Source: Antedon mediterranea
Lineage: Eukaryota; Animalia; Echinodermata
Direction: 5' to 3'
DNA length: 64,000 bases
Assembly (NCBI RefSeq): GCF_964355755.1
Contig: NC_092679.1
Location: 10,151,432-10,215,431 of the forward strand
Positions within the stretch are counted from its first letter, which is position 1; the number at the start of each line of letters is the position of its first letter. The position numbers were made by a program, and so were the translations under genes. The notes under the pieces were generated by a model, which ran no database searches, was not told where the DNA came from, and worked only from the letters and a program-made list of their open reading frames with translations. Positions 11,375-39,912 of this stretch are shown piece after piece.

Positions 11375-11697
11375 ATAGATTCCTTGTCTGTGGTTTAGAC
11401 ATCAAGATATCGTATTACCTTCGCCTGAATGGCGAGAGGTTATTTGGTCACTTGTGTGTTTGTTAAGAAAGTTGGTTAATAATAATAGAAATTGTTTTAT
11501 TTTTTGCATTTCAAATTTTTAAACTTTTAAACAAATTCATTACTAGTATAATGTTGACCGACTTACAAAATGTTCATGTTTACAAGTTTTAGAGAAACAC
11601 AAAAATTGACAGAAAGAAATAAGCAAGAATTTGTTTAAAAGTGCAAATAACCAAATACATTTTAAATTTTCTGTGCTTTTTCTGTTTTATTGTAGCA

Positions 11698-11782
11698 ATG
11701 AAGGCTTATAAAGTTTGGGATTTACCAAGAGAGACAAAAAAAACTGTTGTTGCAAGCTCACTTGTTGAAATTATAAAAAAAG
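11698..11782 (+). CDS. CIDE-N/C2H2 zinc-finger protein, coding exon 1 (CIDE-N N-terminal half)
   Basis: Polypyrimidine tract and TAG acceptor at 11693-11695, ATG at 11698, MKAYKVWDLPRETKKTVVASSLVEIIKKG, donor G|GTAAG (phase 1). Matches the CIDE-N pattern FKV..R..KKGV.A.SL.EL..K. Confidence 0.85.
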
Positions 11783-12329
11783 GTAAGAAATGTCACAAAA
11801 GTCTATCTTTATGCTTTTTTTTTTGTGATGTTTACTTGAGTTATTAAAGATACAATATAATTTGCTGTTTATCAGAAATGCAAGACCAGAATGACTACTG
11901 CAGCTACAGCAGTTAGCGATTTTTTTTCCCGTACGATGGTTCCTCCATTTTTTAATTAACTCAATCGACTCTTCGGATCTGTGGCTGCTCACAAACCATG
12001 ATCTTACTTACTTACATCTACTTACGAACTTGAGTGCCAGATTTATAAATGCTGCTTTTTAGTTACAGTAAGAAAATAATATGCCTAGCAATTTGAAGAT
12101 ATTTTATCATTAATTGGCCTATGTCTACTACCCAGTGTATGCCCTATCGGATAGTATTTGTTGAAGTTGTCACAAACAAAGGAAGCTGTGTTCTAGCAAA
12201 GCGTGCATATTACCATGTATCAACAAAAAAGAAATTTACTCATTACCGTACTGACACGGTTATAAGCCCATACTCGGGTATAACCCTACGCCAGACTCTC
12301 AAATTCAAATTTATTCACCTCCCAATAGG

Positions 12330-13330
12330 AGAAACATAAAAAACTGTACAATAAAACACATCAAAATGAAGATTCACACGGATCAAAAGATTAAAATGGT
12401 TTTAACAAGTTACTGTAAATAAGGTGTCAAAATCATTGTGAAAAAGGGCAGACTTAACACTATCACAGATACCATGATTGACACAATCCACAGATTTATA
12501 CATTTATAAAGGATTATGGCGGTATGTACTATTAAAGACAATATTACAAAAAGAAAAGTCATTGCTTTGTATGTTTTTAATTAGGATGTTTTTTACATGT
12601 TCTAATTTAAATAGCAATTTAGAACATGTAAAAAACACCATCTATTAAAATTGATGCATCTATTAAAATAGATGCTTGTAAAAAGACCTAGATTTGGAAT
12701 CACTAATAAATATCTGGTGAAGTAATAATTCACTTGGTTATATTTAATAATGTTGGACAACTTAGGTAAATTTAAGGAGTGAAGGAGAGCAGTGTTTCTA
12801 CAGAATTTAGGTAAACCCAACGCTGCTTTAATTAATTTACTTTGTGTTTTTTCTAAGTCAAGAATATCCTTCTTGCTCAGATTTACACATTGTAGGCCAT
12901 ACGTTAGAGTTGGTATCAGGACTGTTTTCCAGACATGTAGTTTTACATCTGTAGATGAACCATATTTACACATGCCAGTTCCTTGCAATGCATAGAACTT
13001 ATTCTATTCCTGACATGAGCTTCGCCCTTAAGATTACCACCCAGTTTAACGCCTAGGTGACATAACGACATCAAGAAGATACTGTTTTCTATAGATACTA
13101 TGTGGGATCTTCAACAAATGGTGATTTTCCAAACACAGTGTAGAACGTTTTTGTTAGATTAAATCTCGGACCATGAGGAACAATGTAACTATTAGTATTA
13201 GCAACATAAATTAATTTCTAAAGACCCACAACAGATAGAAAAAATATCATCCGCATAGCAAAATGCATTATAAAAACAGTTGCTGATTGCTATACCACAA
13301 TTAAGGTTATTTAATTGAGTTTGTGTTAAC
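12330..13330 (-). mobile_element. Degraded non-LTR retrotransposon RT C-terminal fragment (RTE/RTEX-like)
   Basis: AFCYADD near 13248-13268 and ORF 12602-12988 (KLHVWKTVLIPTLTYG...LEKTQSKLIKAALGL). Confidence 0.7.
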
Positions 13331-13783
13331 GATCTAACTTAGGCCAAAGGCGATTCAGTCGGTCGCTCGAAAAGACTGCCGACAGAAGACCGTAATTAAT
13401 ACAGACCTAGTTGTTTTGGTCACATGCCATAAAACGCAAAACTCTCTTTTTTTACCGCAACCTCTTTTTTTTAAACTCAGTACAAGAGGCTGCCGTCTGG
13501 CGATTAAACAGTGCCGTAATTATGATCATGATTTTGTGCCACATGAACATGAAACGTAACTCTCTCTCTAAACTGTTCCCACACGATCGACTTTTTCACA
13601 TCTCCCCCCCCCCCCCCCCAAATTCTGGTCGTTATGTGACTTCATGTTCATTTTTGGATCCTAGGGTATAAGCCCACCCCCAAACTTGACATGATTTCAT
13701 TCAAATTTTAAATTTGTTTCAAATTACAAACTGTTTAAATCTAGTGCCCTATTTATCTACTCTATGCAACTATACTTCATATA

Positions 13784-14010
13784 CCGTATATTTCGGTGTA
13801 CAAGTCGCACTTGTGTATAATAAGACGAACCCATAATGGAGACTGAAATATCATTATTTTTTATGTTGACGATGTACTATAGGCCTATAAGACGCACTTA
13901 TTTCTAGGCCGAAATTGAAACATTTTACAATTAAAACAATGGTATTTATTAATAAAACAATGGTTTTCAAGATGATATAATTTTGTTTGATGACCTATTT
14001 ATTAGTAGTA
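13784..14010. mobile_element. Truncated pogo/Tc1-mariner MITE left end, abutted at 14014 by a Harbinger-like end
   Basis: TA-CCGTATATTTCGGTGTA matches the terminus at 14808. TAA-AGCTACGTTCACACC starts at 14014; no partner end was found. Confidence 0.55.
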
Positions 14011-14807
14011 TAAAGCTACGTTCACACCAAGCCCGGACCCGGTCCGGTGGCCGGAGAAAAAATCGTGGAAAATGGGTATAATGTTAAAGAATAGAAGCAT
14101 TCACATCAAATCCGTCCAAATTTCGTACGATTTTTCTCCGGTGGACGGATTCGGAGTGATGGATTTGGAAGCCATTTCATTTGTAAAATCGTACGGATTT
14201 TTTCTTCTGACCAATCAGCGTTGAGTACTATGACCTTTATTTTTACGTTCGTAAATATCACAGATGTACAAAACATGCGCGACGAAAGATCCTCCTGGAA
14301 AAATACTCTGCTTTTTTTTTTAATTTTGGACATTAATATATTAGCAAGTTATTTTATTAAGATAAGTATACTTCTGTTTGTTATTTTAGGCTAAACTAGG
14401 CCAATAATATAATAATTACATCTACTTTACTTCCAATTCTGTGCACACCCACCTTCAACGTCCTGTGTTCCTATGCAACACAAAACAGACGACACTGTGA
14501 CAGGCACTCCGTTTGCCTTTGCGCCTAAACGCCCAACTAGCCCAGGAGAGGAGGAGAGTATATTCGTACGCCAGCACTAGACCTAGCTGTATTCGTGATT
14601 TCTAACTAGCATTATTATTAGAGTATATTCGTTATCCAGAGGTAGGCATGTATTTTTGTGTGCAGTTATTTTTTCATGAGCACATCCATTAGACAGTGTA
14701 TACCACGATCGGAAAACACCCCTATTTGGGGCAAATCGTTGAACCTAAATTCGTTTTAATTGTCAATAACTAATTATCTAACTAAATTTAATTAGTAAAC
14801 AAGGTTA

Positions 14808-15723
14808 CCGTATATTTCGGTGTATAAGTCGCACCTGTGTATAAGACGCACCCCCTAACTGAGAGTAAAATATCGGTATTTTTTATATTGTCGATGTATA
14901 AAACGCACCTTATTTTTCATCAAAACAATGTTTTTTTAAATTGTTATCAATATTATTGTAATAATATATTTTGTTATATCTACAACGGCGTCCTTTATTT
15001 AGGTTTTTTCATACCTACTGTAGGCTCGGCCGCGCCCAGCCTCTACAAGTTCTTTCTAACTTGTTATCCATGAGTTTCGCCGCAACATCGAGTGCATGAC
15101 CGTGTGTGTAACACGTACGTGTGTGGGCTAGCCTCGCTCGATCATTTCGAGAGGGCGCACGTTTTCCCGGACAATCGTATTCGATTAGTATCTATGTATC
15201 CGAGAAGTGTATACGCTAGGCCCATGCTATAATCAACTGGAGAATATACTATTCGAATACCGTACACCATGTGGCCGCCAAGAAGGGCTTGCGCTAGGCT
15301 AGGGGTACGGCGGTCGTGCGTATAACTATAAATACACCATGTGGCCGCCAAGCTTAAGAAAGGGCTTGCGCTGGGGGTATGGCGATTGTGCGTATAACTA
15401 CTGTATAAATAATAGTATTCCAACCGTACGTAAACGTTTACAAATGAAATTTTATCGGAGCGCCTTAATGAACAAATCTTTTCATCATATTTAGTATAAC
15501 ATCATGCTAAAATGTCTTGAAAACTAGGCAGAAGCAGGTTGCTGTTACGTTAGTTAGTTACTGTAGCTAGGCCTAGCCTAGCAAACGAGGTGACGATAGC
15601 CTAGGCCTAGGCTTATGTACAATCTGTGTGGTGAGGCATTTATGTTCGGTGTATAAGACGCACCCTTAATTTAGAGGTCAAATTTGCGTGTCAAAAGTGC
15701 GACTTATACACCGAAATATACGG
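14808..15723. mobile_element. pogo/Tc1-mariner-type MITE
   Basis: TIR CCGTATATTTCGGTGTATAAGTCGCAC / GTGCGACTTATACACCGAAATATACGG with a TA TSD. Confidence 0.85.
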
Positions 15724-15937
15724 TACATCAGGTGGTTAAAATCAGTACCCAGATTCTAACCAACTTTATATACCATCGAGTAAACATTCTAAATAACACG
15801 CGATTTACCGAATTTTTCCCTTACGTAAATTTATATATAGATAATACAACTTAACACTAATTCTTATTGGTCTAATACATCATGCAACTGTTTAAAGGTG
15901 ATTATTAATAATAGTCAGTAACTTTTTTGTTGTTTAA

Positions 15938-17564
15938 AGGGGGGTTCCGGGTTTAAAATGAATAGTAAAAAATGTAAAATATATTTGTTTGTCTCTTGAA
16001 CGGTAAAAGTTTCAATTTATATAAGCGCCCAGTGAAGCAGAACGAAGGCTGTGAAATGAGGCCAGATTACAAGTGCAGCTACGGCAAAATCACACTGTGG
16101 TTACAGAATAGCAAATTCGTGAAATGGTCAATCTTCCGACGACTCGTTATCATTAACCATATCAATTACTTTTGTAAAATTATACTTATCTGATGTAATT
16201 TTAGTCGGTCTTCCCATTTATAAAGTCAATTTTCTATGAAAATCCATCAAAACAGTGAAAAATTAGATAAGTTTGCACTTTACGTTTGCCAATTTTCGCA
16301 CTGACTTAGGGAAAGCCTTCAAAATCAATGAAGCGTAACGTATACATTCCTGCTGAGCGAGGAGAGCGAGACGACGATACACGTGCTCTCTCTGCCCATG
16401 CCTGGCATCGTCACGTGATAAGCAGATACAGTATACAATACCAAACTGGTCGGGTCGAGTATACCCCGTCTATAATCACAACATGAACGATGTACAGTAT
16501 TTGATTGAAGGTCGACTCAACCTACCGGAATGGTATAGATAATATAGCTCGAATGAGAGAGTTGGAATATTTGTAAACATAAGTACAGTATTGCTAATTT
16601 TAACAAGTGTAGCCTATAGTAAAAGGCCTGGTAGTATCAATTCGCATAGGGTCTACTACACTAGCTAGCTCAATTTTAACTGGGCCGGATCGGCTAGGCT
16701 CTAGGCTAGGCCTCCTTCCTACTACCGCCCGGTCTACTTGCTTGATGCAGTATCCGCTTTTTTGGAGAGTAAACTAGGCCTACTTATTAGACGATCGGGA
16801 CACCATACGTGCGGACGGCGATCGGACCTTGTTTTGCCTCAATATTTACTGCCGATTTTTGTAGAACGTTTTAGGTTTAGATTGTTGTTTAGGAGTTTGG
16901 TTGATAGGATGGGTTTGGAATCCACTGAGTTTTGTTATTGATGGGCCAATCGTTTAGTAATAGGCTAGCTAGGCCCATGAATGATGGCCCCAATCAATGT
17001 TTTAACGTAGCCATCGTGGCATGGAATCCCTAGTCAGAAATGGCTCTCACCCCGGCATGAATAAAATGATTTAGGCTAGGCCTAGCCTAGTACGTGAAGC
17101 CGATATACGATCTGTACTATTAATTCGAGGTATAAAAATAGTATAATTTATGACTCCGTAATCTGTACTAAATTTTGTATTTCATTAAATGTCAAATAAA
17201 TATATGCTACTACTGTTATTATTACACTTTAGGCCTAGCTTAGGAAATCTACAAAAAATGTATTTAACAATGATCGGGTGGTCGTCGTTTGACAGAGGAG
17301 AGAGAACACAACGTACAAGCTTGACGTCGCGAGTTTGGAATCCACTGATGACGTGATTTTGTGAATATCTCATGAATATTAATGAGCTTCCCTAAGCTGC
17401 TGAAAAACAGATTTTCCATGAATTTACCCTAAAATGTATATGAAATTTAATTTTTTTAATTTCTTGTTATTACTTCTTCATTCTGACATGTCTATATTGT
17501 TATAATATTTTTTATTTAATAAATAAACGATATTTAAAAGCAATTTTAAACCCAGAATCCCCCT
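15938..17564 (+). mobile_element. Non-autonomous Kolobok-like DNA transposon, copy 1
   Basis: TTAA TSD, AG...CT termini and a 22-bp TIR AGGGGG(G/A)TTC(C/T)GGGTTTAAAAT. A highly similar inverted copy lies at 23798-25378. Confidence 0.82.
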
Positions 17565-17932
17565 TTAAGGTAGTAATTCATAATAAATCTGGTAAATTAA
17601 TAGGTCAGTCTGCTACTATCGGTTTGTTACCAGACCCAAGTTTGTAAATATTGATCCACCAACACCAAGGAAGCAATTAAAAATATTTTTTTTTAATCAT
17701 TAATTCCTGATACATTATTTCACGTAATGAGTATGTTACCATAAAGATTGGTAATTGCAAAAAGTATATACAGTATTGGTAAAATTGTTGTTTTTTTTTT
17801 GTCGGGCTGTTACCATTCATATTAATATCAATATTTCATTTTTGACTATAGATATTGATTTTTAGAAGATTGTCAATTGTATGTGTTTGGAATCAAGAAT
17901 AAACTTACCTCAAAGCTTTGATTTATACTGTA

Positions 17933-18437
17933 CAGTAGAACCTCCATTTTACGTACGGTACGGGACCGAAAGGCGTACGTAAAACAAGGGATTCGTAAAA
18001 TCAAGGTTGACCTTAAATTGACCCCAAATACGTAGAGATCGTAGCTAGCCGTATTTGCCTACTTCTGTACTGTGTACAGTATGCGTCACTAGCTTAGCTA
18101 GGCCTAGGCTATTCAGGCTAGGCTAGCAGGCCTAGCAAGATGTGAGGCCTAACTAGAAAAGTACAGTTATACAGGCTGTGCGATGTTTAAATAAAGTGTA
18201 AAATATAATTGTTTTCTATCAATAAAAACAGTCGCTGCTTTAGGGGGAATGCACGTGCGTAGCTTGTCCCCCACACACAGCAGAATTCCTCATACAGCCA
18301 TGATTGTGGCTTTGTGTGCTTTGTTGTTGTTAAATTGCGCCCTCAATGTAAGAAAATGATGACGTCATCGGTTATTTTAAGCGTACGTAAAATCGAGGGA
18401 ACGTAAAATCAGGGTACGTAAAACACAGGTTCTAGTG
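17933..18437. mobile_element. Tigger/pogo-like MITE
   Basis: TA-CAGTAGAACCTCCATTTTACGTAC ... GTACGTAAAACACAGGTTCTAGTG-TA imperfect TIRs. Confidence 0.75.
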
Positions 18438-19028
18438 TACTTCTTTTCTATAATATTTAAACCCTTTTAAACTGATATGAATACAAAAAAATGTCAGTAT
18501 GTTACCGTGGAATTGCCCCTTTATTAATACTGTACTACAAAATAACGTATTCATAGTCTGAAATAATTAATCTTTATTTTTTCATGTTTTTGGGAGACAA
18601 TACATCTTTAATGTTTAAACATCTCATATCTAAAACCAATAGCAAAAAAATATTGTATTCCAACTGAATTTGTTTGTATTTAGAATGGGCTACTGACTGA
18701 TATTAGAAATTCATTTCTATGCACAATTTGGATACATGATCGTTATCAAAGACAAGCGCGATAATGGTGGACAGCTAATTTTACTAGGTGAGAGTAAATT
18801 ATACTATTAATATAAATGAGAAAAAGATGCTCATAGTTGCGAGGTTTGCCATGTGTATGTTCAGATTGAGTCTGAAACAAATCGATGGAGGAACTCTTGT
18901 ATGGGAAAAAAATCACAGCAGTCATGGTTTGTAATAAAATAATGGATATACTTTAGTATACTATAAACAGATGCCTAAGCTGATGCAATATAGAAAGAAA
19001 TTAATTTATCCATTGTAAATGTTAATAG

Positions 19029-19172
19029 GATCAGAGAAACTTAATTTAAATAATGTGGTGAAAGTTGTTACTGAAGAAGATGGTACCGAGATAGATGATG
19101 AATACCTGCCACATATCAAAGAACACACAATTTTATTGCTTTTGAAGAAGAATGAAAGGTGGCAAAAACCAG
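19029..19172 (+). CDS. CIDE-N/C2H2 zinc-finger protein, coding exon 2 (CIDE-N C-terminal half)
   Basis: TAG acceptor at 19026-19028; open frame GSEKLNLNNVVKVVTEEDGTEIDDEYLPHIKEHTILLLLKKNERWQKP containing the CIDE-N EEDGT signature and the terminal W; donor G|GTTGGT. 144 nt, phase 1-1. Confidence 0.88.
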
Positions 19173-19389
19173 GTTGGTAATGGTATAGTATTTAATTTAA
19201 CAATCAATCATAGAATTTCATGACAAGACAATACTATCACAAGGGTTATCCGCATTAAGTGCAGATAGAACTGACATTATTATTTTTTTTTTTTTATAAT
19301 TTCTATACCCGTGAACTAATTGACATTGTTTTCTTTCTCTTAATTTCCCTTCCCTTTTAACAATGATTGGTTGTATTTTACATTATTTT

Positions 19390-20945
19390 ACAACATGCAC
19401 ATACGTTAAACTATATGAACGTCGACAATATTTCATCCTATAACATTAATTAAATATGTTTATAGTGCTGAATTGTAACTATTTTGTGTCATAAAGGTAT
19501 CTACAGAATACAGTGTATATGTTATATACAGTGTAGCATAGATGAAATTACGAGACCCTTCTTTTAAATCCAATTATTAACATGATGACATCATCAAATT
19601 GACATACAAAGATAACTATTTTAGAAGATTTAGCGATGAAACGCGATGAGCTTTTACGAAAAGAAAGAAAGACTTTTTGAATTCAACGGCCATATGATGA
19701 CGTCATGACATCAGATCATCTAGACAAAATTTGTATATGAATTCATATCTACAATTTAACAACTTCCATAAGTTTTAATCGCGTGGTTCACTTTTCATTC
19801 CGATGAGATATAACAGATTAAAATATTCTGTAAAGATGATATTAAGTACGGTAACTCATTTTATTCTAATATTTATATATATTAATAACAAAATAAAACT
19901 CATGTGAAAGAGAATTGATTGAGAAAGAACGTATTAAAATCTAGGAGAAAATGGGGAATGTGCTCTATTAAACTGGATTAACTAGTACAAAAGTGAAAAA
20001 AATTCTATTTCTAAAATTCGAATAGCCATATGGAGACATCAAAACAACCGGTAGGTACAAATTTTACATGAATTGATATCTACAACTCATCAGCTTCCAT
20101 AATATATTAAAAAATAATAGGGTCGGCAAACATCCTGAGGAGCTGTAACTGATTAAAGGTATTTTTTGCACACATTTGCATTAAATTACTATCTACAACA
20201 TTATCTGCTTACATAATAAGTTAGAAAAATTGGGGGTGAACAATGATCCTGAGGAGCTACAATAGATTCAAAATAGGCATAATTTTGACGATATTTTGTA
20301 ACTTTCGCAACTAAAACGCACGCATTTTTTATTTATTTTTTTTAAAATAACAATTCATGAGAATAAAACATGATTTTCATGCACCGTGGTAAAATTGTTT
20401 GCGCGAACAGGAATTTTTGACATGCGCTGAATGTCATGAATCGCACGGAAAGTTGATTAGAAATAAATTTTGCACATTGTGAAATTTTAAATGCGTGTTT
20501 TTAATCCACAGGAAGTTTGCCCTTGATTTGACTTAAATTTTCACAGTTTCATAAACAAATAATGTTTGGTTTTTAATCTATTATCAATCATTGAAATTCA
20601 TAAAGTCGTGCGTCATGTTGCGCAACTCTGACGTCTTAAAAAATAAATGCTGCACAACTTCATATAAATGTCCATGGTGTTGACAAAGTTATGAAATGTT
20701 ATGTTAACACGTTTTAGCGATACGTGAACCACAAAAAAGTGAAAGAAAGAAATAAGAAAAACATAGAAAAAGAAACAAGACGATTACAAGGAGTTATCCG
20801 CTTGTAGCTTGTAGCGGATAAGTAGTAAATATGAAAAAAAAAAAGATATTTACAAGCACAATGGTTATCCGAAACAAAGGTCGCAGATAACCAAAAAGAA
20901 ACAGGACAATTACAAGGAGTTATCTGCCGAGTGCGGATAACTAAT
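19390..20945 (-). mobile_element. Helentron/HINE-like family A copy (older, degraded)
   Basis: Colinear with 890-4986 minus its inserts; several GTTATCCGC...GCGGATAAC hairpins at 20790-20945. Confidence 0.65.
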
Positions 20946-21074
20946 AAGATAAAAAAAAAAAAAAAAAATCATCCTGACAATGACAAGGGATAACCAATTA
21001 CTGAAAAAATGACAATGCTGTGTGTATCAGTCGCTGGTTCTCAATGGAGATGCAAAATAAAATATGCAAATGCA

Positions 21075-21160
21075 AAATCAAAACGATAAAAGTAAAACAG
21101 CCAGAAAAAGTAGCAGAGCTTTCGGGCTGGACCTAAAAACCTTCAGAATTCATCAGTGCA
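21075..21160 (-). ncRNA. Penelope-type terminal-repeat fragment with a disrupted hammerhead motif
   Basis: Minus strand reads GCA-CUGAUGA-(26 nt, poorly paired)-GAAA-GC-UC-UGC. A related fragment is at 44687-44760. Confidence 0.5.
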
Positions 21161-22241
21161 ATATTTTATATATATATATTTCTTTTCAAGCTGCTGATCT
21201 AGCCAGCTAGGTCCCATGAGGAATACTCATTCAGAAGCTAAAGCAAGCAGCAGTTATAAACTCGACTATAATTTATAGATCCCAGCTGCTGGACCTAAAA
21301 ACCTTCTGGGAAAAGAGAGTCTATGAGGGCTCACTGTTGAACAATTTTGGATTCTTGTCCTTTGATTGGTTGACGCGAATCAACAGACTGGGAAGAATTT
21401 CCTCACTTGTACCACCGTGAAGTCACACTGTCTCTAGAGGGTATTCAATTGCATGCCTACAGGTTGAGGTCACACACACAGCACATTAAAGTTCAAAATT
21501 AACCATATTTAAAGGGGCATGTGATTCATAATTAAAGAACTATCTTTGATTTGTATGTATTTTTGCGATTAAAGGATATCTTTTTAATAATTAATCATAA
21601 ATATATCTGAAGAAAGAACAATGATTAATTTTAAAATGTCGAGCAGCGTTTTTTGGAAGAAATATTTCTTGTTTTACTATGATCTGAACACATGGTCTGA
21701 TGGAAACTTACCTGTGTAATAAATAGTTTATTTGTGGATTGTGACCTTGACCTTTAAATTAATTTGAAAAAATATAATATATATTTGGGTGTCTAGAAAA
21801 CTCAGATCTAGAAAACTCAGATCTGACTTTTCTAGATCTAGAAAACTCAGATATCTGACTTTTCTAGATCTAGAAAAGTCAGATATCAATATCTGAGTTT
21901 TCTAGTTCCAAAATAGAACTAGAAAACCCAGATCATCAAATATGGATCGTTCCATTATAATCAGAGGGTAGCTTGTTTGAAATACTATACTATAATTATT
22001 ATACGTTTTCTTACTAATAATAATTATTATTGCAACTTGTAGTAGCGGCCTATGTTAAATCATAAAGAAATACAGTATAAACCTTTTAAAATGTAGGCTT
22101 AACATTTAGGCCGAGCCTAGCTAAGCAAACTCAATTTTACGGCTCAATATGTGGGCGCTATAGCGATGTATCACGAAGAGTAGGCCTGGCCCGGGTACTA
22201 GGCTAGAAGTGGTCAACTCGTACCCAAAATAACTCGTACCT

Positions 22242-25200: not shown

Positions 25201-25426
25201 ATTTCCTATTCTGTAACACAGTGTCATATCGCCGTAGCTGCACTTGTAATCTGGCCTCATTTCACAGCCTTCGTTCTGCTTCACTGGGCGCTTATATAAA
25301 TTGAAACTTTTACCGTTCAAGAGACAAACAAATATATTTTACATTTTTTACTATTCATTTTAAACCCGGAACCCCCCTTTAAGGTTGGTTTCTTAATCAA
25401 AGGGGTAATAATCGCTTGACGAAGGA
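22242..25426 (-). mobile_element. L2/Crack-group LINE, 3' part (RT domain), interrupted by Kolobok copy 2
   Basis: ORF 22425-23663 with LLDLSSAFD, GVPQGS and YADD; 3' stem-loop AGCGCTTT...AAAGCGCTATATAAAT and an A-rich tail. Removing 23798-25378 plus one TTAA restores ITPLIKKPTL-NPDVFKNYRPVSNL. Confidence 0.9.
23798..25378 (-). mobile_element. Non-autonomous Kolobok-like DNA transposon, copy 2 (inverted relative to copy 1)
   Basis: TTAA TSD at 23794-23797 and 25379-25382; reverse complement of 15938-17564 with small indels. Confidence 0.85.
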
Positions 25427-28426: not shown

Positions 28427-30050
28427 TTTTGTTATTATTGATGTTAACTAGAGCATCATTGATCATAGCCAAAAATGCTATGGGACCAATGATTGTGCCC
28501 TGGGGCACTCCACCCATCAACTCAATCCAATCAGAGTACGAATTTTTATATCGGACTCTTTGTTTTCTTTCCGTCAGGAAGTCCACCACCCACTGTACGA
28601 GTGGAGGAGGTGCCCCAAGTTCGAGTAGTTTTGTGACTGAGATTTGATGGTCAACTAACTCGAACGCCTTGGAAAAATCAGTTAGCACAAGTGTGCTAAT
28701 GTTTTTTGGCTTCTCTGCACCAGAAACTAGATGGTGGTAAATATCAATCAGACAGTGGGTGGTGGACAATCCTTTGCGGTTACCGAATTGTCTATAATCA
28801 ATCCGGGGATTAATTGCCTCAACAATCCATTTACAAACACGACCTTCAGCAATTTTTGCTAGGCACGGGGTCAAGGAAATCGGGCGTAACTTGTCAATTG
28901 ATGGTGGGGCCGTTTTAGGGAGTGGGATCACATTGGCTTCCTTCCATTGGGTGGGCACTTTGCTCTGCGTAAGGGATGCATTAACTATATTTGTCACTGG
29001 TTGACTTAGTTCGTATGCTACAACCTTTAATAAAAGTGGGGGTAAACCATCTGGGCCACCAGCCTTACAAGTGGAAAGTTTATTCATATCGTCAAATATC
29101 TCCCAAGGCTGGACCTGGGGAGGAGGCACTGGGCTAGGTAAATAGGCAGGGAGATCAGTTAAAACCAAAGGTTGTTGTGAGTTGGCGGCTATAACTAATT
29201 GCTTATTAATAGCAGCAGCTCCTACAAAATCTGTAGGTGCAATATCTGTCATTTGGATGGTAATATCAGATTTGTTCATGTTTGCTAAATACCTGACCTC
29301 TTTGTGCTATTTCCCAGGTTCAGTCCTTTGGAGTCTTCGAACTTTATTAATATTGTGTGAAGCCTTGGCTTTTTTAATTTGCTTAATAATTTCGTTTCTG
29401 AGGCTAGTCCTGGAGGTTTTATCATCCATGGTTTGTCCCTGTTATGTAATTTCACAGTTTTGGTTGGAAAAAAACTATCAACACCATGATTAACCGTTTG
29501 ATAAAAGGCGTCTGCCTTGGACTGAACATCAACAGCTTCATAAACATTAGACCAAGTTTGGTTTTGGATCCAATTACCAAATTCTCTTACTTTAGAGTCC
29601 TTAATGGGCTGGATGGTTTTCACATTTAAGATGTTTACACACTTAGAAATCTTGGGCAACCAACTGACACAGTTGTGGTCACTACGACCAATCGGAGAAC
29701 TAATATGGGGAGTATGGTATAACCCCGCAAAATCTGATATAATCAGATCAAGGATGGCGTTTTCCCTAGTTGGTGACTTAACCACCTGTGTTAATCCATT
29801 ACCCAAACATAAGGGTTTAGTATTAGTCCGGTTAAAATCTCCTAGAAGCACTAAACCAGCCTGTGGTTTAACAGTACGTAAATAATCGATAGTTTCTATT
29901 AAATGGGAGTTCAAAAGCTCTTGGTGCGGCGAATCCGGTGGTATATATATTGCACCTAATATAATGTACGGTAAACTTCTGGGTAACTTTGGGTGCGTAA
30001 TTAGTAGCCAAGTTACCTCTAATTCATTAGGCACGTTCACATCCTGTATA
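28427..30050 (-). mobile_element. CR1/L2-group LINE fragment (APE C-terminus and RT N-terminal half), frameshifted
   Basis: ORF 29285-30040 (LLGDFN, PTRENAILDL, SDHN) and ORF 28416-29279 (GPDG, LRPISLT, DFSKAF, GVPQGT). Related to 50790-53249. Confidence 0.88.
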
Positions 30051-31089
30051 GACTCCTGTATAGACTACGAAGTTTTAAGTAAGTTTGTCATCCGAAAATA
30101 GGCTGAAAACGCTGTTATTTCTGTTGTTGGTTACGCTTCGTTGCACGGCATTGTTTGTCATCGATCAAACGATCAAGATTCGTGAAAAATCTATCATGAC
30201 ATTACAAAAAAATTTCAGAAATTTGTCTGTCCAGCGTCAGCGTGTGACACACTGATATGACCCTTTGCCAATACATATATATAGTTATGTCTATGTATGC
30301 CTAACATGCATGTTAGGTGGAAGGCCAAACCGTTCGAATTCCCTGGCGAACTGGCCCGACGAGCGTCTCTAGTAGTAGTACAGTACAGAGTAGGCCTAGC
30401 CTAACTGATCGTCTGCTGCGCGCGGCCTTTGCAATGGTGGTAGACGTGGGCCATTATCGAACGGTCTTAAAATGTTAGGATTTACTGGTAGTACTCCTCT
30501 TCTAGGTCTATTTCTATATCCGCTACAAAATATTCCTCTTCACTATCCAATTTCCAAAATGATTATAAAAATAAGCACTCCTCCGTCGATCATGGAAAAA
30601 AAATGGCGTCGGGGTTTCTCTGTGTAGAGAGCGATCGTCCGCCGTGTGTAATTGATATTTTCACACATGCGCACTGTATCTACGTTTCTCCAGCTTTCCG
30701 ATGCAAAACGCTAGTAAATTTGCAGAAGATTGCCGTAACAACAGATTTTAAAACTCATTTTAAAAATTAATCGGTTGACAAAAAAAAAATATTTGTATCC
30801 GAAAATATTAAAAACATATTCATAAACAAAAATGCAAAGCAGATAAGCCAACGCTGTAATAGTATAGAGCCAATCTGCAAAAGACTGTGAATTACCCAAT
30901 TCTCCTAATGCAAATTTTTCTTTTAGTGACGTCACAAAAAGATTTTTTGTCACCGATTAGAGGGGGTCCCAGACGTCCATAACATTTAGCATAAAGGTGA
31001 CTGACATGTTTCTATGCGTAATTTCCGATAATGAAACTAACTCATTTTTTTTAACATCATTTCATATCCATTTTAACATTTTGCTTAAG

Positions 31090-32530
31090 GTACATTTCAC
31101 GATCTTCACCAGAGAGTTTTTCTCTTGCGTTCAAGTTGTCTACGCTCACGACGCGAGTCTTTTACATCATCAGTATACCATTTAGGTTGTCTGATCAGCT
31201 TCAGGGACCGTGATTTCTCTGGGCAATGTTTATCAAGTACTTCGCGAATAGAACTATTATATAACTCAGCTTGAGAATTGGGATCATTTGTCAGAAGAAT
31301 ACACTTCGTATGAAAGATTCCATGTCTAGGTCTTTAAACGATCTACGGGTGATAATTCTTCTTTCGGGACATGGTTTAAACCTATTGATACTACACTCTA
31401 TCATGTTATGATCAGATCCATATCTGCATGGTGATACAGTAATGGATGACTCGCATGTAATAAAGATCATCTTCTGGATGACAAATAACATGATCAAGCG
31501 TATTTCCACATTTATGCGTTGGGCTGTTAACGTACTGTTTCATGTTGTGTTCTGCCAAAGAAGTTAAAAATTGCGACACGTCTTGTTTTGTAGGATCATT
31601 AACATGAACATTCAGATCACCCATAATCAATGGTTTGCCAGGGAGTGTAGATACGACACCCAGGAAACTGTCAAAATCTTCACAAAAATTGATTATGTGT
31701 AAAGCCATTTTTCTTTGAGGGTGGTGGTCGATAGACTGCAATAAAACGAACAAACTTTGAGTTGTCAGTTATTGAAGCATGTTCAAAAGTGACGGTATCT
31801 ATTCCTGTAGGTGAAATACCTAGCTTCAGACTTGATTTGCTGATCATTGCAATACCGCCGTGTCTATCACCAGGTCTTGGAAAGTTTAAGAAAGAGTACC
31901 CTAATGGCGTACATTCACCAATAATAACAGGGTCTTCTTCAGACAACCAAGACTCTGTGATAGTCAAGACATCAACAGCTTTGTCGAGAATGTAGTCATA
32001 AATTGTTTGAGTTTTATTACCGATAGATTGTGCGTTCCAGAAGTGAACATCGAGATACTTTTTACTCTCCACTGTTATTTGCACAAGATTATTATAATTA
32101 ATGACGCGAAGTTCCAACTTCCTCTGAAAGCATACATCAGTTGTGTCAGAAAAGCGAGATGTCGTAAGGACTTTTATTTGTCGTCGCTTTTTCACGCCAG
32201 CTCTACATCCTCGTACGGTCTTTCTACAAATACCGAGGTCACTCAGTCGCTGCCATAATTGTTGACTAAACGATTGTGGTCTGTTTACTTGTTTGCCAAT
32301 ATTCTTGATTTCATTCAACGTGTAACGTACAAGTGACTTCATAATGAATGCAAGTCAGATGAGTTGAACCATTCACTCTGAGCAAGAAATGCCGATAATA
32401 CTGTATGCAATGAAAAACAGAGTTCGCAGAAAGTTCAGTTCAGCTAAAACAAAAGAATCAGCTGAGCATGAATAGACTTGAACAACAGGTCAGTCTAGGC
32501 TTGTCTGGAATCAAAGCAGGAGGCCTCAAA
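31090..32530 (-). mobile_element. L2/Crack-group LINE, 5' part (APE endonuclease), probably the same insertion as 22242-25426
   Basis: ORFs 31680-32342, 31412-31753 and 31291-31509: RGCRAG, WNAQS, ITESWL, YRPP, MGDLN, PTHKCGNTLDHV, SDH. Same strand and inside the same MULE arms as the 3' part. Confidence 0.82.
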
Positions 32531-32719
32531 CAGGCCTTAACTTAGCTAACTCGTACCTCAACCAACTCGTACCCACACCAACTTGTACATACCTAATTTT
32601 TAGGCCTACATTTTAACGGTAACGGGCACTGTATTTTCTTTATGATTTAAGCCGTAGGCCGCTTCTACATGTTACAATATTAGTAAGAAAACGTACACAG
32701 TAACCAGTTTCAATAATAA

Positions 32720-34211
32720 CTAGACATGTAACTCGTCATTTTGACGAGTTAGTTATCCGCACCACACAAACGCCACGCACACGTCATATGTTGGACTTTT
32801 GCACACAGAAAAAGATTATGACATGAACTGAAGAATATGATATGCTGTTTAGTGCTAAATTCTGTCAATTTTGTATTACTATCATATAGTAAATACAGTG
32901 CAAACGGCATAATCTGTATACATACATACAGTGTAGAATAGGTGAAATTACGGAACCCGCCATTTATTCCAATTGTTATATGGCGACGGTATCAAAATGA
33001 AAAACAACGATAGCAATTTCGGAAGGAAATTATCTCAGCAACAACATTAACTTGTAGAAGAAATTTGAATACATAAAATATAGATGCACGCTATTTTAAA
33101 TGTGATGAACTATGACGCAAAATATGAAAATACAACTTTTTATATTCAACTGGCCATATGATGACGTCAAAACATCTGATTGGCAAAATGTTAACATGAA
33201 TTCGTATCTGCAATCCAATAGCTTCCAGAAAACATTTTAATCATGATTATCACTTTTTATTCTAATGAGCTATAACAGATTGAAACTTACTGTAAAGATG
33301 AAAATAAATGACTCATGCGAAAGATAGTTCATTGACCTAGAAAATATCAAAATAGGGGTGAAAATGGAAAACAGATAAGTGGAGATGCGTTCTATTAAAT
33401 GTGATGCGCTCTATTAAATGTGATGCGCTATGATGAAAGATACAAAAATCCTATATTTTATATTTGGGTGGCCATACGATGACGTTACAATGTCCGGTTA
33501 ACCATATTAATACATGATCCGATATCTACAACTCACCAACTTCCAGAATATGCAATAAAAATAACTTTGACCGTTTAATTTAGAAACTACGGCTCTTTAA
33601 AAAAAGGTATAATTTAGACAAATTTGGACGAATTTTTGAACTTTTTCAAAAAAAATGCACGTAAATTATTCAATTTGACGTGCCCGTATGACGTAATTTT
33701 ATGTCAAAATTGTTTAAAGGTTGGTAAAATTACTAGAAAAGGCTGGAAAAGCATAAAAATTTGCGCACACGTGGGAATTTTTGACATGCTCAAAATAACA
33801 TGAAACGCGTAGAAAATTGATTAGAAATTGATTTTTTGCATTTATGAATTTTAAACGCGCAACTTCGTGTGCGACATGCCAATTTTTTAACACAGAAAGT
33901 TAGCACATGATAATTTATAAATTAAACTTTTGCTAAGTTTCAATTTAAAATTTTATATGGTTTTCGATCTATGTTAAATACGCGAAATTCATAAAAACGC
34001 CCGTAAGTCACGTTGCGCAACTCTGACGTCATTCAAAAATAGGAGGTGCACAACTTCATGTGAATGCGCATATGTTGACAAAGTTATGAAATGTTATGTT
34101 TTAGAGATACGCTCTGCACAAAAATTACAGAAAGAAAGAAGAATACAGAAAAAAAAAGATGATGAAACAGGACAGTTACAAGGAGTTATCTGCTCAATGC
34201 GGATAACTAAT
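32720..34211 (-). mobile_element. Helentron/HINE-like family A copy
   Basis: CTAG plus hairpin AACTCGTCA-ttt-TGACGAGTT plus GTTATCCGC at 32720-32760; terminal hairpin at 34185-34211. Splits the right MULE arm. Confidence 0.72.
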
Positions 34212-34654
34212 AAATAATAATCTAGCAGTCCTATTTCAAATGACCTACCTTCTGATTAATAATGGAATGATCCAAATGACCTACCAACCAATCATATGAT
34301 GATCTGAGTTTTCTAGTTCCATTTTGGAATTAGAAAACCCAGATATTGATATCTGTTTTTCTAGATCTAGAAAAGTCAGATATATCTGAGTTTTCTAGAT
34401 CTTAGTTTTCTAGACACCCTATATATTTTTTTTAAATATGTTTTTTGAGCCTCTTTTATAGTATAATTCCCTTATTTAGATTTTTTGTTTACTATTTATT
34501 AATACTGTAGTGCATTGTGTTTGATTTTGATTATCTCTCTAAGACAGTGGTGCCTAATTAACCATGCATAGCCATACCACTTTACTGAGATATAAGTTTT
34601 ACTAGGAAATAAACAATGCCAATGCCATGTATGCGATACAATAGAAGAAACAAA

Positions 34655-37008
34655 CTAGAATTTAATTCGTCACTTTGACGAATTATAGGTGATCATTTTT
34701 ATCGCTTTACTTACATTAATATTTTTTAAACATGCATGTACGTTAACATACAATAGGAAAATGTTGATGTATACCATCCTGTTATACGCTTACAGTGCTG
34801 AGTTGTGCCTATTATGTGTCATATACAATATGTACAGTATATACTGTATATCTATATACAGTGTAGCATAGGTGAAATTACGGGACCCACATCATGTTCA
34901 AATTTTTTGGTATGATGGAATTATCAAAATAAACTCGAAGATGACAATTTCGAAAGATAATGAATTGAGCAAATAAATATAAGGATTGGAAGATAATTTG
35001 AAACGTAGAAGCGCAATGCGCGCTCTTTGAAATTTGTATAACTTTGACTAAAGAAATTTAAAAACAACGTTATAACTTCAACTGGCCATATGATAACATC
35101 ACAACATCCGATAGGCTTAATTTTTATATGAATTCATATCTACATTTAATCAGCTTTCATAATAAATTATAATCTTCAAGGTCACCTTTAATTCTGAAGA
35201 GCTATAACATATTCAAATGTATGGTGTAGCTGAAATTACACGACCTTGGTTATTAAAGTTTTTACACATGATGACGTCATCAAAATAAAAATGTTGACAA
35301 CTGATGAGAAAGATAATTAATTGAGCAAGCACATACTAAAATTTCGGCGAAAATCGGGCTCAAATAACGGAGATGCGCTCTATTGAATGTGATAACCCAC
35401 ACAAAAAGATAAAAATTACTAATTTTTAAATTGAAGTGGCCATTTGATGACGTCATACCATTTTGTACGTCTAATGTGTACATGAATATGTATCTACAAC
35501 CCAATGGCTTCCCGAATAAGTTAAAAAAATTTGGGGTCACCTGCCATTCTGAAGAGTTATATTCATTTTAAGAAGGCCTTATTTTTCACCATTTTCAGCA
35601 CTTTGATGCAATTAATTTGCGCATTTTGTTATTTTTAACCTGCTCGTATAGCGTTATTTTAAGTCGGAACTGACTCAAATTTGGTGAATGTACTAAGGAT
35701 GGTGAGTAGAACGCAATTTGTATAAAAAAATTGCAATTTTTACGCTTTGTAAGTATCGCGCGCGCAAAATATTTTTTTTGCGCAGTAATTTTTTGAAACA
35801 CGCAAATGGCCTAATTCATGCTCTAAATTGATTAAAACGTAATTTTGAGCTTTTTAAATTTTTAATGCGCGATTCTACGCGCATGACCCTACGTGCGCGC
35901 GCGTTTTTACTTGCTAATATTTTTACCCTTGACCTGAAGTTTACGTGTAGTGAATTTCATAAATATGTGATAATGAATTATGGATATATGATTGATAATG
36001 TAATTTCACAAAATTGCGTATACGTGACGTCACGGGTGAGAGATCACGCTGAAAAGCTTATTATGGCTAAGTTAAAGTATTTGAAAGACATTGTGAAATT
36101 TTTGTGATCATTGCTATTCAACTTTTTGAGATATTTGATGAACAAAAAGTGTACAGAAAGAAGAATCCGATAGGCTTAATTTTGATATGAATTCATATCT
36201 ACATTTCATCAGCTTTCATAATAAATTATAATCTTCAAGGTCACCTTTAATTCTGAGGAGCTATAAGATATTCAAATGTATGGTGTAGCTGAAATTACAC
36301 GACCTAGGTTATTCAAGTTTTTACGCGTGATGACGTCATCACAATAAAAATGTTGACAACTCACGAGAAAGATAATTAATTGAGCAAGCACATACTAAAA
36401 TGTGTGCGAAAATCGGGCTCAAATAACGGAGATGCGCTCTATTGAATGTGATAACCCACACAAAAAAGATAAAAATTACTAATTTTTTAATTCAAGTGGC
36501 CATTTGATGACGTCATACCATTTTGTACGTCTAATATGTATATATATTTATATATTTTTTTAAACACGCAAATGGCCTATTTCATGCTCTAAATTGATAA
36601 AAACTAAATTTTGAGCTTTTTAAAATTTCAACGCGCGATTTCACGCGCATGACCTTGAAACGCCCGAGTTTTTATTTGCTAATATTTTTTACCTTGACCT
36701 CAAGTTTACGTGTAGTGATTTTCATTAATATGTGATAATGAATTATGGAGATATGATTGATAATGTGATTTCACAAAATGGCGTATACGTGACGTCACGG
36801 ATGAGTGATCACGCTGAAAAGCTTATTATGGTTAAGTTAAAGTACTTGAAAGACAATGTGAAATTTTGGTAATCATTGACATTAAACTTTTTGAGATATT
36901 TGTTACACAAATTTGTACAGAGAGAAATAAATAATAAGAATAAGAAGAAGAATAAAGATTTCATACAATAACAATAGGTGATCATTTTATTCTAAATGAT
37001 CACCTAAT
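34655..37008 (-). mobile_element. Helentron/HINE-like family B copy with an internal duplication
   Basis: CTAG plus hairpin AATTCGTCA-ctt-TGACGAATT plus AGGTGATCATTT; the far end is the hairpin TAGGTGATCATTT-tattct-AAATGATCACCTA. 35105-36150 is largely repeated at 36165-36920. Confidence 0.7.
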
Positions 37009-37069
37009 AATATTAACTTATGTAAATGTTTTTTGCTGGCTAAATTATCTATATTATTGTATATTTCAG

Positions 37070-39792
37070 CAAAAAATGCAACTCTAAAGTGTGCTAAAAA
37101 CCGGAAAAAACAAAGACAACCATTTTTAAAAGATGAAGTTAAAATTGAAGAGTCTTCCGTAAGCATGGGTAGAAGTTCTGTGAATGTTCATAAAAATAAA
37201 TCTCCAAGACGTTCTGGTCGTCAACGAAAAGAAAATAGACGCTATAGGAGTAATGGGTTTTTAGAACTTGCAGATTTACCGAATGACATAAATGAAAATG
37301 ATGACAAATTAATTTTTAAAAGTGATGATTATCCAGGAGAAAGTAGGTGTGCTTTTGTTGATCAAATTACAAATGGAGTTGGTGAAGAAACTTTAGAAAT
37401 TATTGACAAGACAGTTGTTCGATATTCAAAACGAAAACTATTGCCAACGGATTGTTCTCATTTTGTTGTTCAAGGAAATACAGACAAATTGGTAGAGTCA
37501 ATTGATTACAATTATATTCCACATGATTTAGAATTAACTGATAATGAGTCTCATGGCCCAAAAATAAAACGTGTTCGAACTCGTCCTCCTCTACCACTTT
37601 GTGAAACATGTGGAGAACAATTTCCAAAAAGATCATTTCTTTATCAGCATATTCAAACAGTTCACAATGTTCAAGATGCTTACAGTTGCTTTGGATGTGA
37701 TAACAAATTTAATGACTCTAAAGCATGGGAAAATCATGAGGAAGTTCACAAAGTACAGAAAATAGCATGTACTTATTGTGGAAAGTATTTTTCTACAAAG
37801 ACAAAATTAAATGTTCATATCCGGATACATACTGGTGAACGGCCTTATAAATGTGAGTTGTGTCCTAAAGCATTTGCCACAAACTCAACCTTTAACACCC
37901 ACATCAAGATGCATACTGGCGAAAAATTGTACACTTGTCGTGTTTGTCATAAGAAATTTGTTCAACGAAGTGGACTAAAGACTCATTTACTAACACACAA
38001 TGAAGATCGACCTCATGAATGCTCATTGTGTCGGAAAGCATTTACATTGCCAATTTATTTAAAACGACATATGTATACACATACTGGAGAACGTCCTTGG
38101 AAATGTACAATCTGCCCAAAAGCTTTTGCTAAAAAGTGGACTCTTGATGAACATATTAAAATTCATAATAAAGATAGGAAATTTCCATGTAAATTTTGTG
38201 ACAAATACTTTTATGGAACAGGTGATTTGAAGGTTCATGAACGTATTCATACTGGTGAAAAACCATATCCTTGTCCTGAATGCGAAAAATGTTTTGCAAC
38301 GCTCACTAAAATGAAAGTGCACCAGAGAGTTCATACGGGAGAGAAACCATACAAATGTAATTTTTGTTGTAAAGGGTTTGCTACAAGTTCTACCAGACAT
38401 GTGCATGAGCGTATTCATACAGGAATAAAACCATATGTATGCAGTTATTGTGGAAAAGGATTTACACAATATGGAAATTTAGAAAATCACATAAAAACAC
38501 ACACTGGGGAAAAACCATTTCAGTGTACAGAATGTGGTAAGACCTTTTCTACCCGTACAAATTATGACAATCATGTAAAGGTGCACACAAAAGAAAGGCC
38601 TTTTAAATGTCAATATTGTGAACTGGCATTTTTGAGTAAGTTTAGACTTGACGCTCATGAAAGAAAGCATACAGGTGAAAAAAAATACAAATGTAATGTA
38701 TGTCAAAAGCAGTTTGATGTACCTTCTAAATTAAAAACCCATGTGCGGTCACATGATGCCCCTCGTGTATATCAATGTAGTCACTGTAATAAGAATTTTG
38801 GAAACAAAGCAGGATTTGTAACACATTTAAAATCACATGAATCGGTTGCTCATGGACAAAACCAATGCAACATGTGTAGCACATCTTTTGAAGACAAAAC
38901 TGCTGCAGATGTACATATGCAGATACATGCAGCAGCAGAAGCCTTAATGCTTCAGATGCAGCAAGAACCTGTTACAACTGTATTAGATGGAGAGGAAATA
39001 CCTAATGATGCTGAAAAGGAACTTCAATCTAGAAAAGTTCAACAAGTAGTCCTTCAGCGTGAAGGAGAATCTGAAACTGTTCATTTGGTCCTAATACAAG
39101 AGCAGTCGTCAACAAATGATAGTGATTCACTGGATGGTATTAGTGAGGAGAAAGAGCACAAAGCTGTTGAAGCAAATCAAGAGGAACTTAATGTAACTAA
39201 AAATCATATTCAACATGTCATTTTGCAACAAAATTCAGACACTGTTGTTCATACTCAAGAAAACCTTGAAGAAGAAGTGTTTCAACAGTTAATATTACAA
39301 CAAAATCTTGATAACTCTGGAAGTCAAAATCAAGAGTCAAAACTAGATGTTGTCACTTCTGATACTGATCTTGAACAGTGCCCATCTCGGGGGGAATTTG
39401 TTCAGAAATATCAAATAAACCCAATAGAAAATCAATCTAAACAGGAGATATATCATATTGTTTCAAGTGAAACTAATTCTAATTCTCAAACATTGGCTTC
39501 AGAAACACTTATGCAGAATACATTAAATGAAACTAATGAACTTTTTTCAAATGCTGAGGTTCCCACCCAACAATTAATTATTCAGGATGGAAACATTAAA
39601 GCTAGTACTTCTGCAGCAGAACTCTTACAGCAGGTTGCCATCCAACAGGGATTGATTCAAGGTGATCATAGCTTAGTTGTTTATGAACAATCTGAATTGC
39701 CATGTGATACAGTGCAACAGGTAGTTCAAGGACAATCTCAAGAACCTGTTAAGTTGTATGTGATTCAAGAACAATTTGTAGAAAATGATTAA
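37070..39792 (+). CDS. CIDE-N/C2H2 zinc-finger protein, terminal coding exon: basic linker, 16 C2H2 fingers, Q/E-rich tail
   Basis: TTTCAG acceptor at 37064-37069 whose phase matches the exon 2 donor (G+CA = Ala). 16 CxxC-x12-Hx3-4H units, many with TGE(K/R)PY-type linkers; stop TAA at 39790-39792. Spliced CDS is 85+144+2723 = 2952 nt, or 983 aa. Confidence 0.95.
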
Positions 39793-39839: not shown

Positions 39840-39912
39840 AATAAAGTATACTGTACATGCTCGTACAAACCTATAATGATTACTCTTAAGAACCACTAAT
39901 GTGTTGAATAAA
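39840..39912 (+). promoter_or_regulatory. Candidate polyadenylation signals
   Basis: AATAAA at 39840-39845 and 39907-39912, downstream of the stop. The AT-rich background lowers specificity. Confidence 0.4.

What the first reader, a model, noticed from the sequence alone, without database searches (positions are those of the whole stretch)
11698..39792. CIDE-N domain spliced onto a 16-finger C2H2 array: a candidate new class of effector-domain zinc-finger protein
Seen in sequence: two small exons buried in transposon debris encode a complete CIDE-N-like domain (YKVWD..R..KKTVVASSL..IIKKG / VVTEEDGTEIDDEY...TILLLL...ERW). They join through canonical phase-1 GT-AG introns in frame with a single large exon of 16 C2H2 fingers, giving 983 aa without stops while all neighbouring ORFs are decayed. 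Established: CIDE-N is a ubiquitin-like, charge-bipolar interaction module of DFF40/CAD, DFF45/ICAD, CIDEA/B/C and Drosophila Drep proteins, and can polymerise head to tail. Small N-terminal domain exons plus one finger exon is the layout of KRAB-type zinc-finger genes. Inference: CIDE-N may serve here as a lineage-specific oligomerisation or effector module, analogous to KRAB, SCAN, ZAD or BTB. It could support transposon control or recruit a DFF40-type nuclease to specific DNA. I am not aware of a characterised protein with this architecture but cannot search for one.
Basis: partly seen in the sequence, partly recalled or inferred. Interest (0 to 1): 0.88.

Follow-up and report, generated by a model that had tools for sequence, protein, structure and literature searches.

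The report
Feather-star CIDE-N zinc-finger fusion gene
A gene found in two families of feather stars is predicted to join a small self-stacking module, best known from the cell-death DNA-cutting machinery, to 16 zinc fingers, and likely acts as a conserved gene regulator that chains up on DNA rather than as a fast-evolving anti-transposon family.

Summary
Exons 11698-11782, 19029-19172 and 37070-39792 join through GT-AG phase-1 introns into 983 aa without stops. That protein is identical to RefSeq XP_071962627.1 of the feather star Antedon mediterranea. Both small exons hit Pfam CIDE-N; there are 16 C2H2 fingers. An orthologue with the same layout exists in Anneissia japonica, another crinoid family. 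No read naming both exons was seen; support for the splice is indirect.

The 'KRAB-like class' reading is not supported. Only these two genes turned up in three searches, and the DNA-contacting residues of fingers 3-15 are frozen (0 of 52 changed against 25 of 143 other finger positions), the opposite of an arms race. Both charged faces of CIDE-N are kept, and a three-copy model gives a head-to-tail chain (0.42 against 0.00), possibly from memory of solved filaments.

Best reading: a conserved, probably single-copy crinoid transcription factor that uses CIDE-N to self-associate. I found no paper on the architecture, and the scan had not noted it on other DNA.

The parts
11696..11782 (+). First coding exon (ATG at 11698; residues 1-28 of CIDE-N, basic face K5, W7, K14, K15). 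Acceptor AG at 11694-11695 implies a further upstream exon, not located.
11783..19028 (+). Intron 1, GT-AG, phase 1, splits codon G29; position appears ancestral among invertebrate CIDE-N genes
19029..19172 (+). Second coding exon (residues 29-76 of CIDE-N, acidic face D46, T48, E49, D51, E53, Y54)
19173..37069 (+). Intron 2, GT-AG, phase 1, 17.9 kb, filled with repeats and LINE fragments on the minus strand
37070..39792 (+). Large last coding exon: linker, 16 C2H2 fingers, acidic and glutamine-rich tail, stop
37201..37236 (+). Basic 12-residue block (residues 121-132) identical in both crinoids inside a variable linker; candidate nuclear-localisation or chromatin-contact motif (inferred)
37600..38928 (+). 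C2H2 array, residues 254-696; fingers 3-15 92% identical to the Anneissia orthologue
38929..39789 (+). Tail predicted disordered; residues 701-983 hold 49 D/E, 13 K/R and 43 Q in 283; short conserved hydrophobic blocks; candidate activation region (inferred)
39840..39912 (+). Two AATAAA hexamers (39840, 39907), candidate polyadenylation signals

Best explanation
This gene, conserved in two crinoid families and probably single-copy, likely encodes a sequence-specific transcription factor whose N-terminal CIDE-N domain is predicted to stack head to tail with copies of itself. Step 1 (shown in sequence): a two-exon CIDE-N cassette with phase-1 ends stands in frame with a one-exon zinc-finger gene. 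Step 2 (inferred): the cassette was shuffled in from an invertebrate CIDE-N gene before Antedonidae and Comatulidae split. Step 3 (inferred from conservation): fingers 3-15 read a fixed, old set of DNA sites. Step 4 (predicted): the basic face of one CIDE-N binds the acidic face of the next, so DNA-bound molecules form open chains that give avidity, cooperative occupancy of clustered sites or bridging of distant ones; the long flexible linker would allow it. Step 5 (inferred): the acidic, glutamine-rich tail carries the transcriptional output, more likely activation than repression.
For: Identity with RefSeq XP_071962627.1. Orthologue XP_033114916-9 in Anneissia japonica, a different family of Comatulida. 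CIDE-N is more conserved than the linker: 17 of 76 against 93 of 172 positions differ, p 4e-6. Base-contact positions of fingers 3-15: 0 of 52 differ against 25 of 143 other non-structural finger positions, p 4e-4. Of the 12 Drep2 interface residues listed in PMC6292858 (passages), the alignment gives 7 identical, 3 similar (R22/K14, Q59/E49, E61/D51) and 2 not kept (K9/M1, N72/H61); the ten matching positions are identical in both crinoids. The domain models at pLDDT 95-98 and fits FSP27 4mac and DREP3 7v6e at 1.1 A rmsd over 77 columns. Three copies fold as an open head-to-tail chain: score 0.42, best of 3 controls 0.00, runs agree in at least 96% of contacts, partner pLDDT at least 88; the mark was reached by 21 of 30 proteins solved as pairs and 0 of 23 solved as single chains (animals 7 of 16). 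Head-to-tail assembly is described as general for CIDE domains (PMC8647176).
Against: No experiment. The complex pass may come from memory, since like filaments are solved, and the job held three copies, unlike the calibration. Conservation of the two faces fits binding to other CIDE-N proteins just as well. Only two species are known, so selection rests on one protein pair and no dN/dS. Single copy could not be checked in the genome (none held). The activation role of the tail rests on composition alone. The exon 2 to exon 3 joint is not among the joints listed (110 rows not shown).
Confidence: 0.6

Rival explanations
1. The CIDE-N mainly binds other CIDE-N proteins: it would co-assemble with DFF40, DFF45 or a Drep-like protein, tethering the apoptotic nuclease (or its inhibitor) to the sites read by the fingers, or being held inactive by them.
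For: The same two faces serve hetero- and homo-assembly (PMC6292858 passages; PMC5730196 abstract). The acidic motif is intact, and the Anneissia domain is strongly acidic overall (11 K/R, 18 D/E), as inhibitor-type domains are. The closest relatives by identity (about 50%) include DFF45-like proteins with a DFF-C domain.
Against: The basic face is fully kept as well, unlike DFF45, which keeps only acidic residues. No DFF-C or DFF40 domain in either protein. In the quick tree the crinoid pair lies outside the groups holding DFF40 and DFF45 rows, with weak support. No crinoid DFF40 was looked for.
Confidence: 0.15
2. It is the visible member of a KRAB/ZAD/FiNZ-like family in which CIDE-N recruits silencing to transposons.
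For: Exon layout is KRAB-like. Tandem ZNF number tracks retroelement number across animals regardless of accessory domain (PMC10547256 passages). Anneissia has 169 ZNF ORFs (supplement file 2). The locus is rich in repeats.
Against: Only 2 hits, one per species, among 43 candidates and among 7943 candidates scored with a CIDE-N profile; 0 of the other 149 listed CIDE-N representatives carry a C2H2 pattern. No second CIDE-N exon in the window and no other finger-pattern match outside the exon. Contact residues are frozen, whereas arms-race families show positive selection there. An old, domesticated transposon-derived target is not excluded.
Confidence: 0.1
3. The CIDE-N acts as a chromatin-contact module, binding histones next to the DNA site rather than chiefly itself.
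For: DREP4 CIDE binds histones H1, H2A and H2B in pull-downs (PMC8891305 passages).
Against: DREP1 CIDE does not, so the property is not general; nothing here tests it; it is compatible with, not exclusive of, self-assembly.
Confidence: 0.08
4. The fusion is a gene-model artefact: the CIDE-N exons and the finger exon belong to separate transcripts.
For: The intron is 17.9 kb. No listed joint names both exons. No holder is on record as RNA. The finger exon has its own Met at 37165.
Against: Two independent genome annotations give the same fusion. The Anneissia isoforms differ by one residue exactly at this junction, which in NCBI's pipeline normally reflects spliced reads (recalled). In run X1 a 3233-nt contig starts at 37067 with 27 letters that do not fit the intron, while contigs of X2-X4 run into the intron to about 36985. 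Sequence identity continues across the junction in both species.
Confidence: 0.05

Closest known systems
Drosophila Drep2/Drep3/Drep4 and mammalian DFF40, DFF45, CIDEA/B/C (PF02017; PDB 4d2k, 7v6e, 4mac, 1d4b)
   Same: CIDE-N sequence and fold, both charged faces; best solved match Drep2, E 1.5e-11.
   Different: No DFF40 nuclease, DFF-C or lipid-droplet region; the domain is followed by a linker, 16 C2H2 fingers and an acidic tail.
BTB-, SCAN- and ZAD-zinc-finger proteins (self-associating N-terminal domain plus C2H2 array; functions recalled)
   Same: N-terminal interaction domain, flexible linker, tandem finger array.
   Different: Unrelated fold (ubiquitin-like roll); predicted open-ended head-to-tail chain rather than a closed dimer; apparently one gene, not a family.
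KRAB-ZNF and FiNZ-ZNF families (PMC10547256)
   Same: Small N-terminal exons spliced to one finger exon.
   Different: No expansion found and no change at contact residues; no repressor domain recognised.
Transcription factors with head-to-tail polymerising domains: PB1 of plant ARF/Aux-IAA, SAM of TEL/Yan and Polyhomeotic (recalled, from no call)
   Same: A bipolar small domain on a DNA-binding protein that could form open polymers; PB1 shares the ubiquitin-like fold.
   Different: Different domain family and DNA-binding domain; polymerisation here is predicted only.
Octopus CIDE-N plus Myb/SANT-like protein (CAI9723676.1, XP_029637809.1, XP_014776568.1; uncharacterised)
   Same: CIDE-N at the N terminus of a likely DNA-binding protein, conserved in three species.
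   Different: Different DNA-binding domain; its CIDE-N does not group with the crinoid one, so probably an independent capture.

Membership tests
CIDE-N domain (PF02017) | Profile match above the curated cut-off over the whole domain | tested here: met
   each exon above cut-off; orthologue E 1.3e-22, profile 2-75 of 76
CIDE-N domain (PF02017) | Alpha/beta roll fold | tested here: met
   1.1 A rmsd to 4mac and 7v6e; TM 0.88-0.92 to CIDE-N clusters; predicted models
CIDE-N domain (PF02017) | Basic and acidic interface patches | tested here: met
   10 of 12 Drep2 interface residues identical or similar
CIDE-N domain (PF02017) | Head-to-tail oligomerisation | tested here: inconclusive
   passes the mark but may be from memory of solved filaments; no experiment
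DFF40 / DFF45 apoptotic nuclease system | DFF40 nuclease or DFF-C domain after CIDE-N | tested here: not met
   neither family found
DFF40 / DFF45 apoptotic nuclease system | Binding to DFF40 or DFF45 | not tested
   the one complex job went to self-association; no crinoid DFF40 was identified
Tandem C2H2 transcription factors | Canonical fingers with TGEKP-type linkers | tested here: met
Tandem C2H2 transcription factors | Sequence-specific DNA binding | not testable with these tools
   inferred from frozen contact residues
KRAB/ZAD/FiNZ-type expanded ZNF families | KRAB, SCAN, ZAD or BTB domain | tested here: not met
KRAB/ZAD/FiNZ-type expanded ZNF families | Many paralogues sharing the effector domain | tested here: inconclusive
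   none found, but the genome was not available and 247 of 397 hits were not listed
KRAB/ZAD/FiNZ-type expanded ZNF families | Fast change at base-contacting residues | tested here: not met
   0 of 52; 59 of 64 identical over all 16 fingers, the 5 changes in fingers 1, 2 and 16
KRAB/ZAD/FiNZ-type expanded ZNF families | Binding and silencing of transposons | not testable with these tools
   needs DAP-seq or ChIP and knockdown

The most novel reading that the evidence does not exclude
The protein is a sequence-specific adaptor for the CIDE-N filament network: its fingers pick fixed genomic sites and its CIDE-N seeds or caps a filament that includes the DFF40 nuclease, giving site-directed cutting or protection of DNA in crinoid development, autotomy or regeneration. 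With the Octopus CIDE-N plus Myb/SANT gene, it would show CIDE-N repeatedly recruited to DNA-binding proteins in invertebrates.
Probability: 0.12. Interest if true: 0.85.

Novelty: new variant of a known kind. Interest (0 to 1): 0.47.

Why it matters
It adds a polymer-forming domain to the short list of N-terminal partners of C2H2 arrays, and moves CIDE-N from apoptosis and lipid droplets to gene regulation. The fusion is kept under selection in two crinoid families, so it is a testable case of a transcription factor that may use an open filament for cooperativity, and a possible link between sequence-specific DNA binding and the apoptotic nuclease. Its reach is limited: two species, apparently one gene each, no functional data.

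Tried and rejected
No genome is held for this window, so paralogues could not be counted by tBLASTn. No RNA holder is listed; X1 is RNA only by guess. X1 shows no long piece across exon 2 and its flanking introns where X2-X4 do, but lack of cover proves nothing, and X1 also covers intronic stretches, so it may hold DNA. A structure from two sequences was poor (pLDDT 58.8) and was replaced by one from 50. The Atlas search on residues 1-340 returned generic finger clusters only. A metagenome scan found 254 pattern matches and no relative. The tree of 148 domains is a quick tree on 83 columns with 73 of 143 inner branches open; it cannot name the donor. P0010, high, is a chance match to leucine-rich repeats, not a shuffled exon. 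The idea that the donor was a transposon accessory gene (P0034/P0133 type) rests on recall; one paper search gave no support and identity favours DFF45/Drep-like domains, so it was dropped. One search did not return the short CIDE-N proteins of its own alignment, so its candidates were probably chosen by finger words: it tests finger proteins resembling this one, not all CIDE-N proteins. Earlier scan notes held nothing on this architecture.
Full report
1. Observation. Exon 1 matches Pfam CIDE-N positions 2-28 and exon 2 positions 31-76, each above the curated cut-off. Sixteen C2H2 fingers lie at residues 254-696. A search with exon 2 alone returned one protein among 16 candidates, RefSeq XP_071962627.1 of Antedon mediterranea, identical to the joined sequence at 983 of 983 residues. 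The window is therefore most likely from this feather star. An AG acceptor two bases before the ATG suggests an upstream exon that I did not locate.

2. Is the splice real? No read naming both exons was seen. No holder is on record as RNA. On 18980-37750, run X1 (RNA by guess) has a 3233-nt contig that begins at 37067 with 27 letters that do not fit the intron; contigs of X2-X4 continue into the intron to about 36985. 27 letters plus the shared CAG make 30, which is what a 31-letter assembly graph would leave after a branch at a donor ending in CAG, as exon 2 does (inference; the partner exon is not shown and 110 joints were not listed). Stronger is the orthologue: Anneissia japonica XP_033114916-9 has the same architecture, is 71% identical, and its isoforms differ by one residue at this very junction. 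The two species belong to different families of Comatulida.

3. What selection says. Identity by region: CIDE-N 59 of 76, linker 79 of 177, fingers 1-2 31 of 50, fingers 3-15 329 of 357, tail 171 of 287. CIDE-N is more conserved than the linker (p 4e-6). In fingers 3-15, 0 of 52 base-contact positions differ against 25 of 143 other non-structural positions (p 4e-4). Over all 16 fingers 59 of 64 contact positions are identical; the five changes lie in fingers 1, 2 and 16. Families in arms races with transposons show positive selection at these positions (PMC10547256, passages). This gene shows the reverse. The comparison rests on one pair of proteins.

4. One gene or a family? Three searches found only the two crinoid proteins: residues 1-78 against proteins of 540-1721 aa (2 of 43 candidates); a 50-sequence CIDE-N profile over the 7943 candidates sharing most words (2 of 7943; probably mostly finger proteins); and a full profile scan of 1.84 billion representatives, with 397 hits, of which the best 150 were listed and 0 of the 149 others carry a C2H2 pattern. 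The other 247 were not seen. The window has no second CIDE-N exon. No genome was available, so single copy is likely, not shown. Anneissia has 169 ZNF ORFs, so CIDE-N does not look like the hallmark of the crinoid finger repertoire.

5. The domain. The best solved match is Drep2 (4d2k, E 1.5e-11). Of 12 Drep2 interface residues (PMC6292858, passages), 7 are identical, 3 similar and 2 not kept; the ten matching positions are the same in both crinoids. The model has pLDDT 95-98 over the domain and under 50 over the linker and most of the tail, and fits FSP27 and DREP3 at 1.1 A. Three copies fold as an open chain, residues 2-18 and 60-63 of one copy against 42-57 and 73 of the next: score 0.42, best of 3 controls 0.00, contacts agreeing in at least 96%, partner pLDDT at least 88. 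The mark was reached by 21 of 30 solved pairs and 0 of 23 single chains (animals 7 of 16). Like filaments are solved, so the pass may be from memory, and the job is unlike the two-copy calibration. Charge-based head-to-tail assembly is reported for DREP2, 3, 4 and DFF40 (PMC8647176, parts 1-3 of 5 read).

6. Origin. CIDE-N is a mobile module in invertebrates. Of 60 of the 149 hits scanned with Pfam, partners include Sushi-transmembrane receptors, CARD, NYN, zf-CW and Myb/SANT, besides DFF40 and DFF-C. Of 10 hits whose best stretch starts at profile position 25 or later or ends by 30, 7 break at the glycine that intron 1 splits here, 2 break elsewhere and 1 is a chance match. This suggests an ancestral intron and a phase-1 cassette suited to exon shuffling (inference from mispredicted proteins, not from gene structures). 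The tree cannot name the donor.

7. Mechanism. Best reading (0.6): a conserved transcription factor whose fingers read fixed sites, whose CIDE-N chains DNA-bound molecules, and whose acidic, glutamine-rich tail gives the output. Rivals: hetero-assembly with DFF40/DFF45/Drep proteins (0.15), a KRAB-like silencing family (0.1), histone contact as for DREP4 (0.08; PMC8891305, passages), an annotation artefact (0.05).

8. Literature. Searches for CIDE-N with C2H2, echinoderm, zinc finger protein fusion, domain architecture, and CIDE domain with C2H2 and for crinoid zinc fingers gave no description of this architecture. Passages read: PMC7642931 (CIDE-N only in a table of Hydra-enriched domains), PMC10547256 (no 'CIDE' in the main text; supplement files 3-5 not searched and could bear on the claim), PMC11861897 (one supplement), PMC9552553. 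PMC5730196: abstract and outline only. The library lacks most subscription journals, and InterPro could not be queried; the domains are already in automatic annotation. BTB, SCAN, ZAD, PB1 and SAM functions are recalled, from no call.

9. Verdict. Real, conserved and apparently undescribed domain combination; a new variant of the known design 'self-associating N-terminal domain plus C2H2 array', not a new expanded class. Interest 0.47.

Noticed in passing
P0043, P0154, P0155 (Octopus): A 370-aa CIDE-N plus Myb/SANT-like (MADF-like) protein in three Octopus species: a second, probably independent, fusion of CIDE-N to a DNA-binding domain.
   Followed up: partly
P0005 cluster (oysters), P0015, P0057, P0060, P0110: Likely membrane receptors with Sushi-like outer parts, a transmembrane segment and three tandem CIDE-N domains in the tail; uncharacterised. 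CIDE-N as a receptor signalling tail could merit its own look.
   Followed up: partly
P0034 (Anneissia), P0133, P0157, P0158 (Lingula): CIDE-N followed by a shared region with no Pfam family (37% over 124 aa between crinoid and brachiopod).
   Followed up: partly
P0124, P0084, P0024, P0022: Further fusions: CIDE-N plus NYN nuclease, CIDE-N plus CARD, zf-CW plus CIDE-N, and a DFF45-like protein with a long extra C-terminal region. Single records; could be model artefacts.
   Followed up: no
window 16100-16585 and 24732-25217; also 15934-17568 against 23794-25382: Two young copies (94-98% alike) of one element lie inverted in intron 1 and intron 2, on either side of exon 2; they could pair in the pre-mRNA and affect exon 2 inclusion.
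   Followed up: no
window 19173-19182: A second GT donor lies 4 nt downstream of the used one; its use would shift the frame and give a CIDE-N-only product, a possible chain-capping isoform.
   Followed up: no
window 56368-61526: Recent duplications (87-99% alike, 1.7-3.5 kb apart) around a LINE fragment.
   Followed up: no
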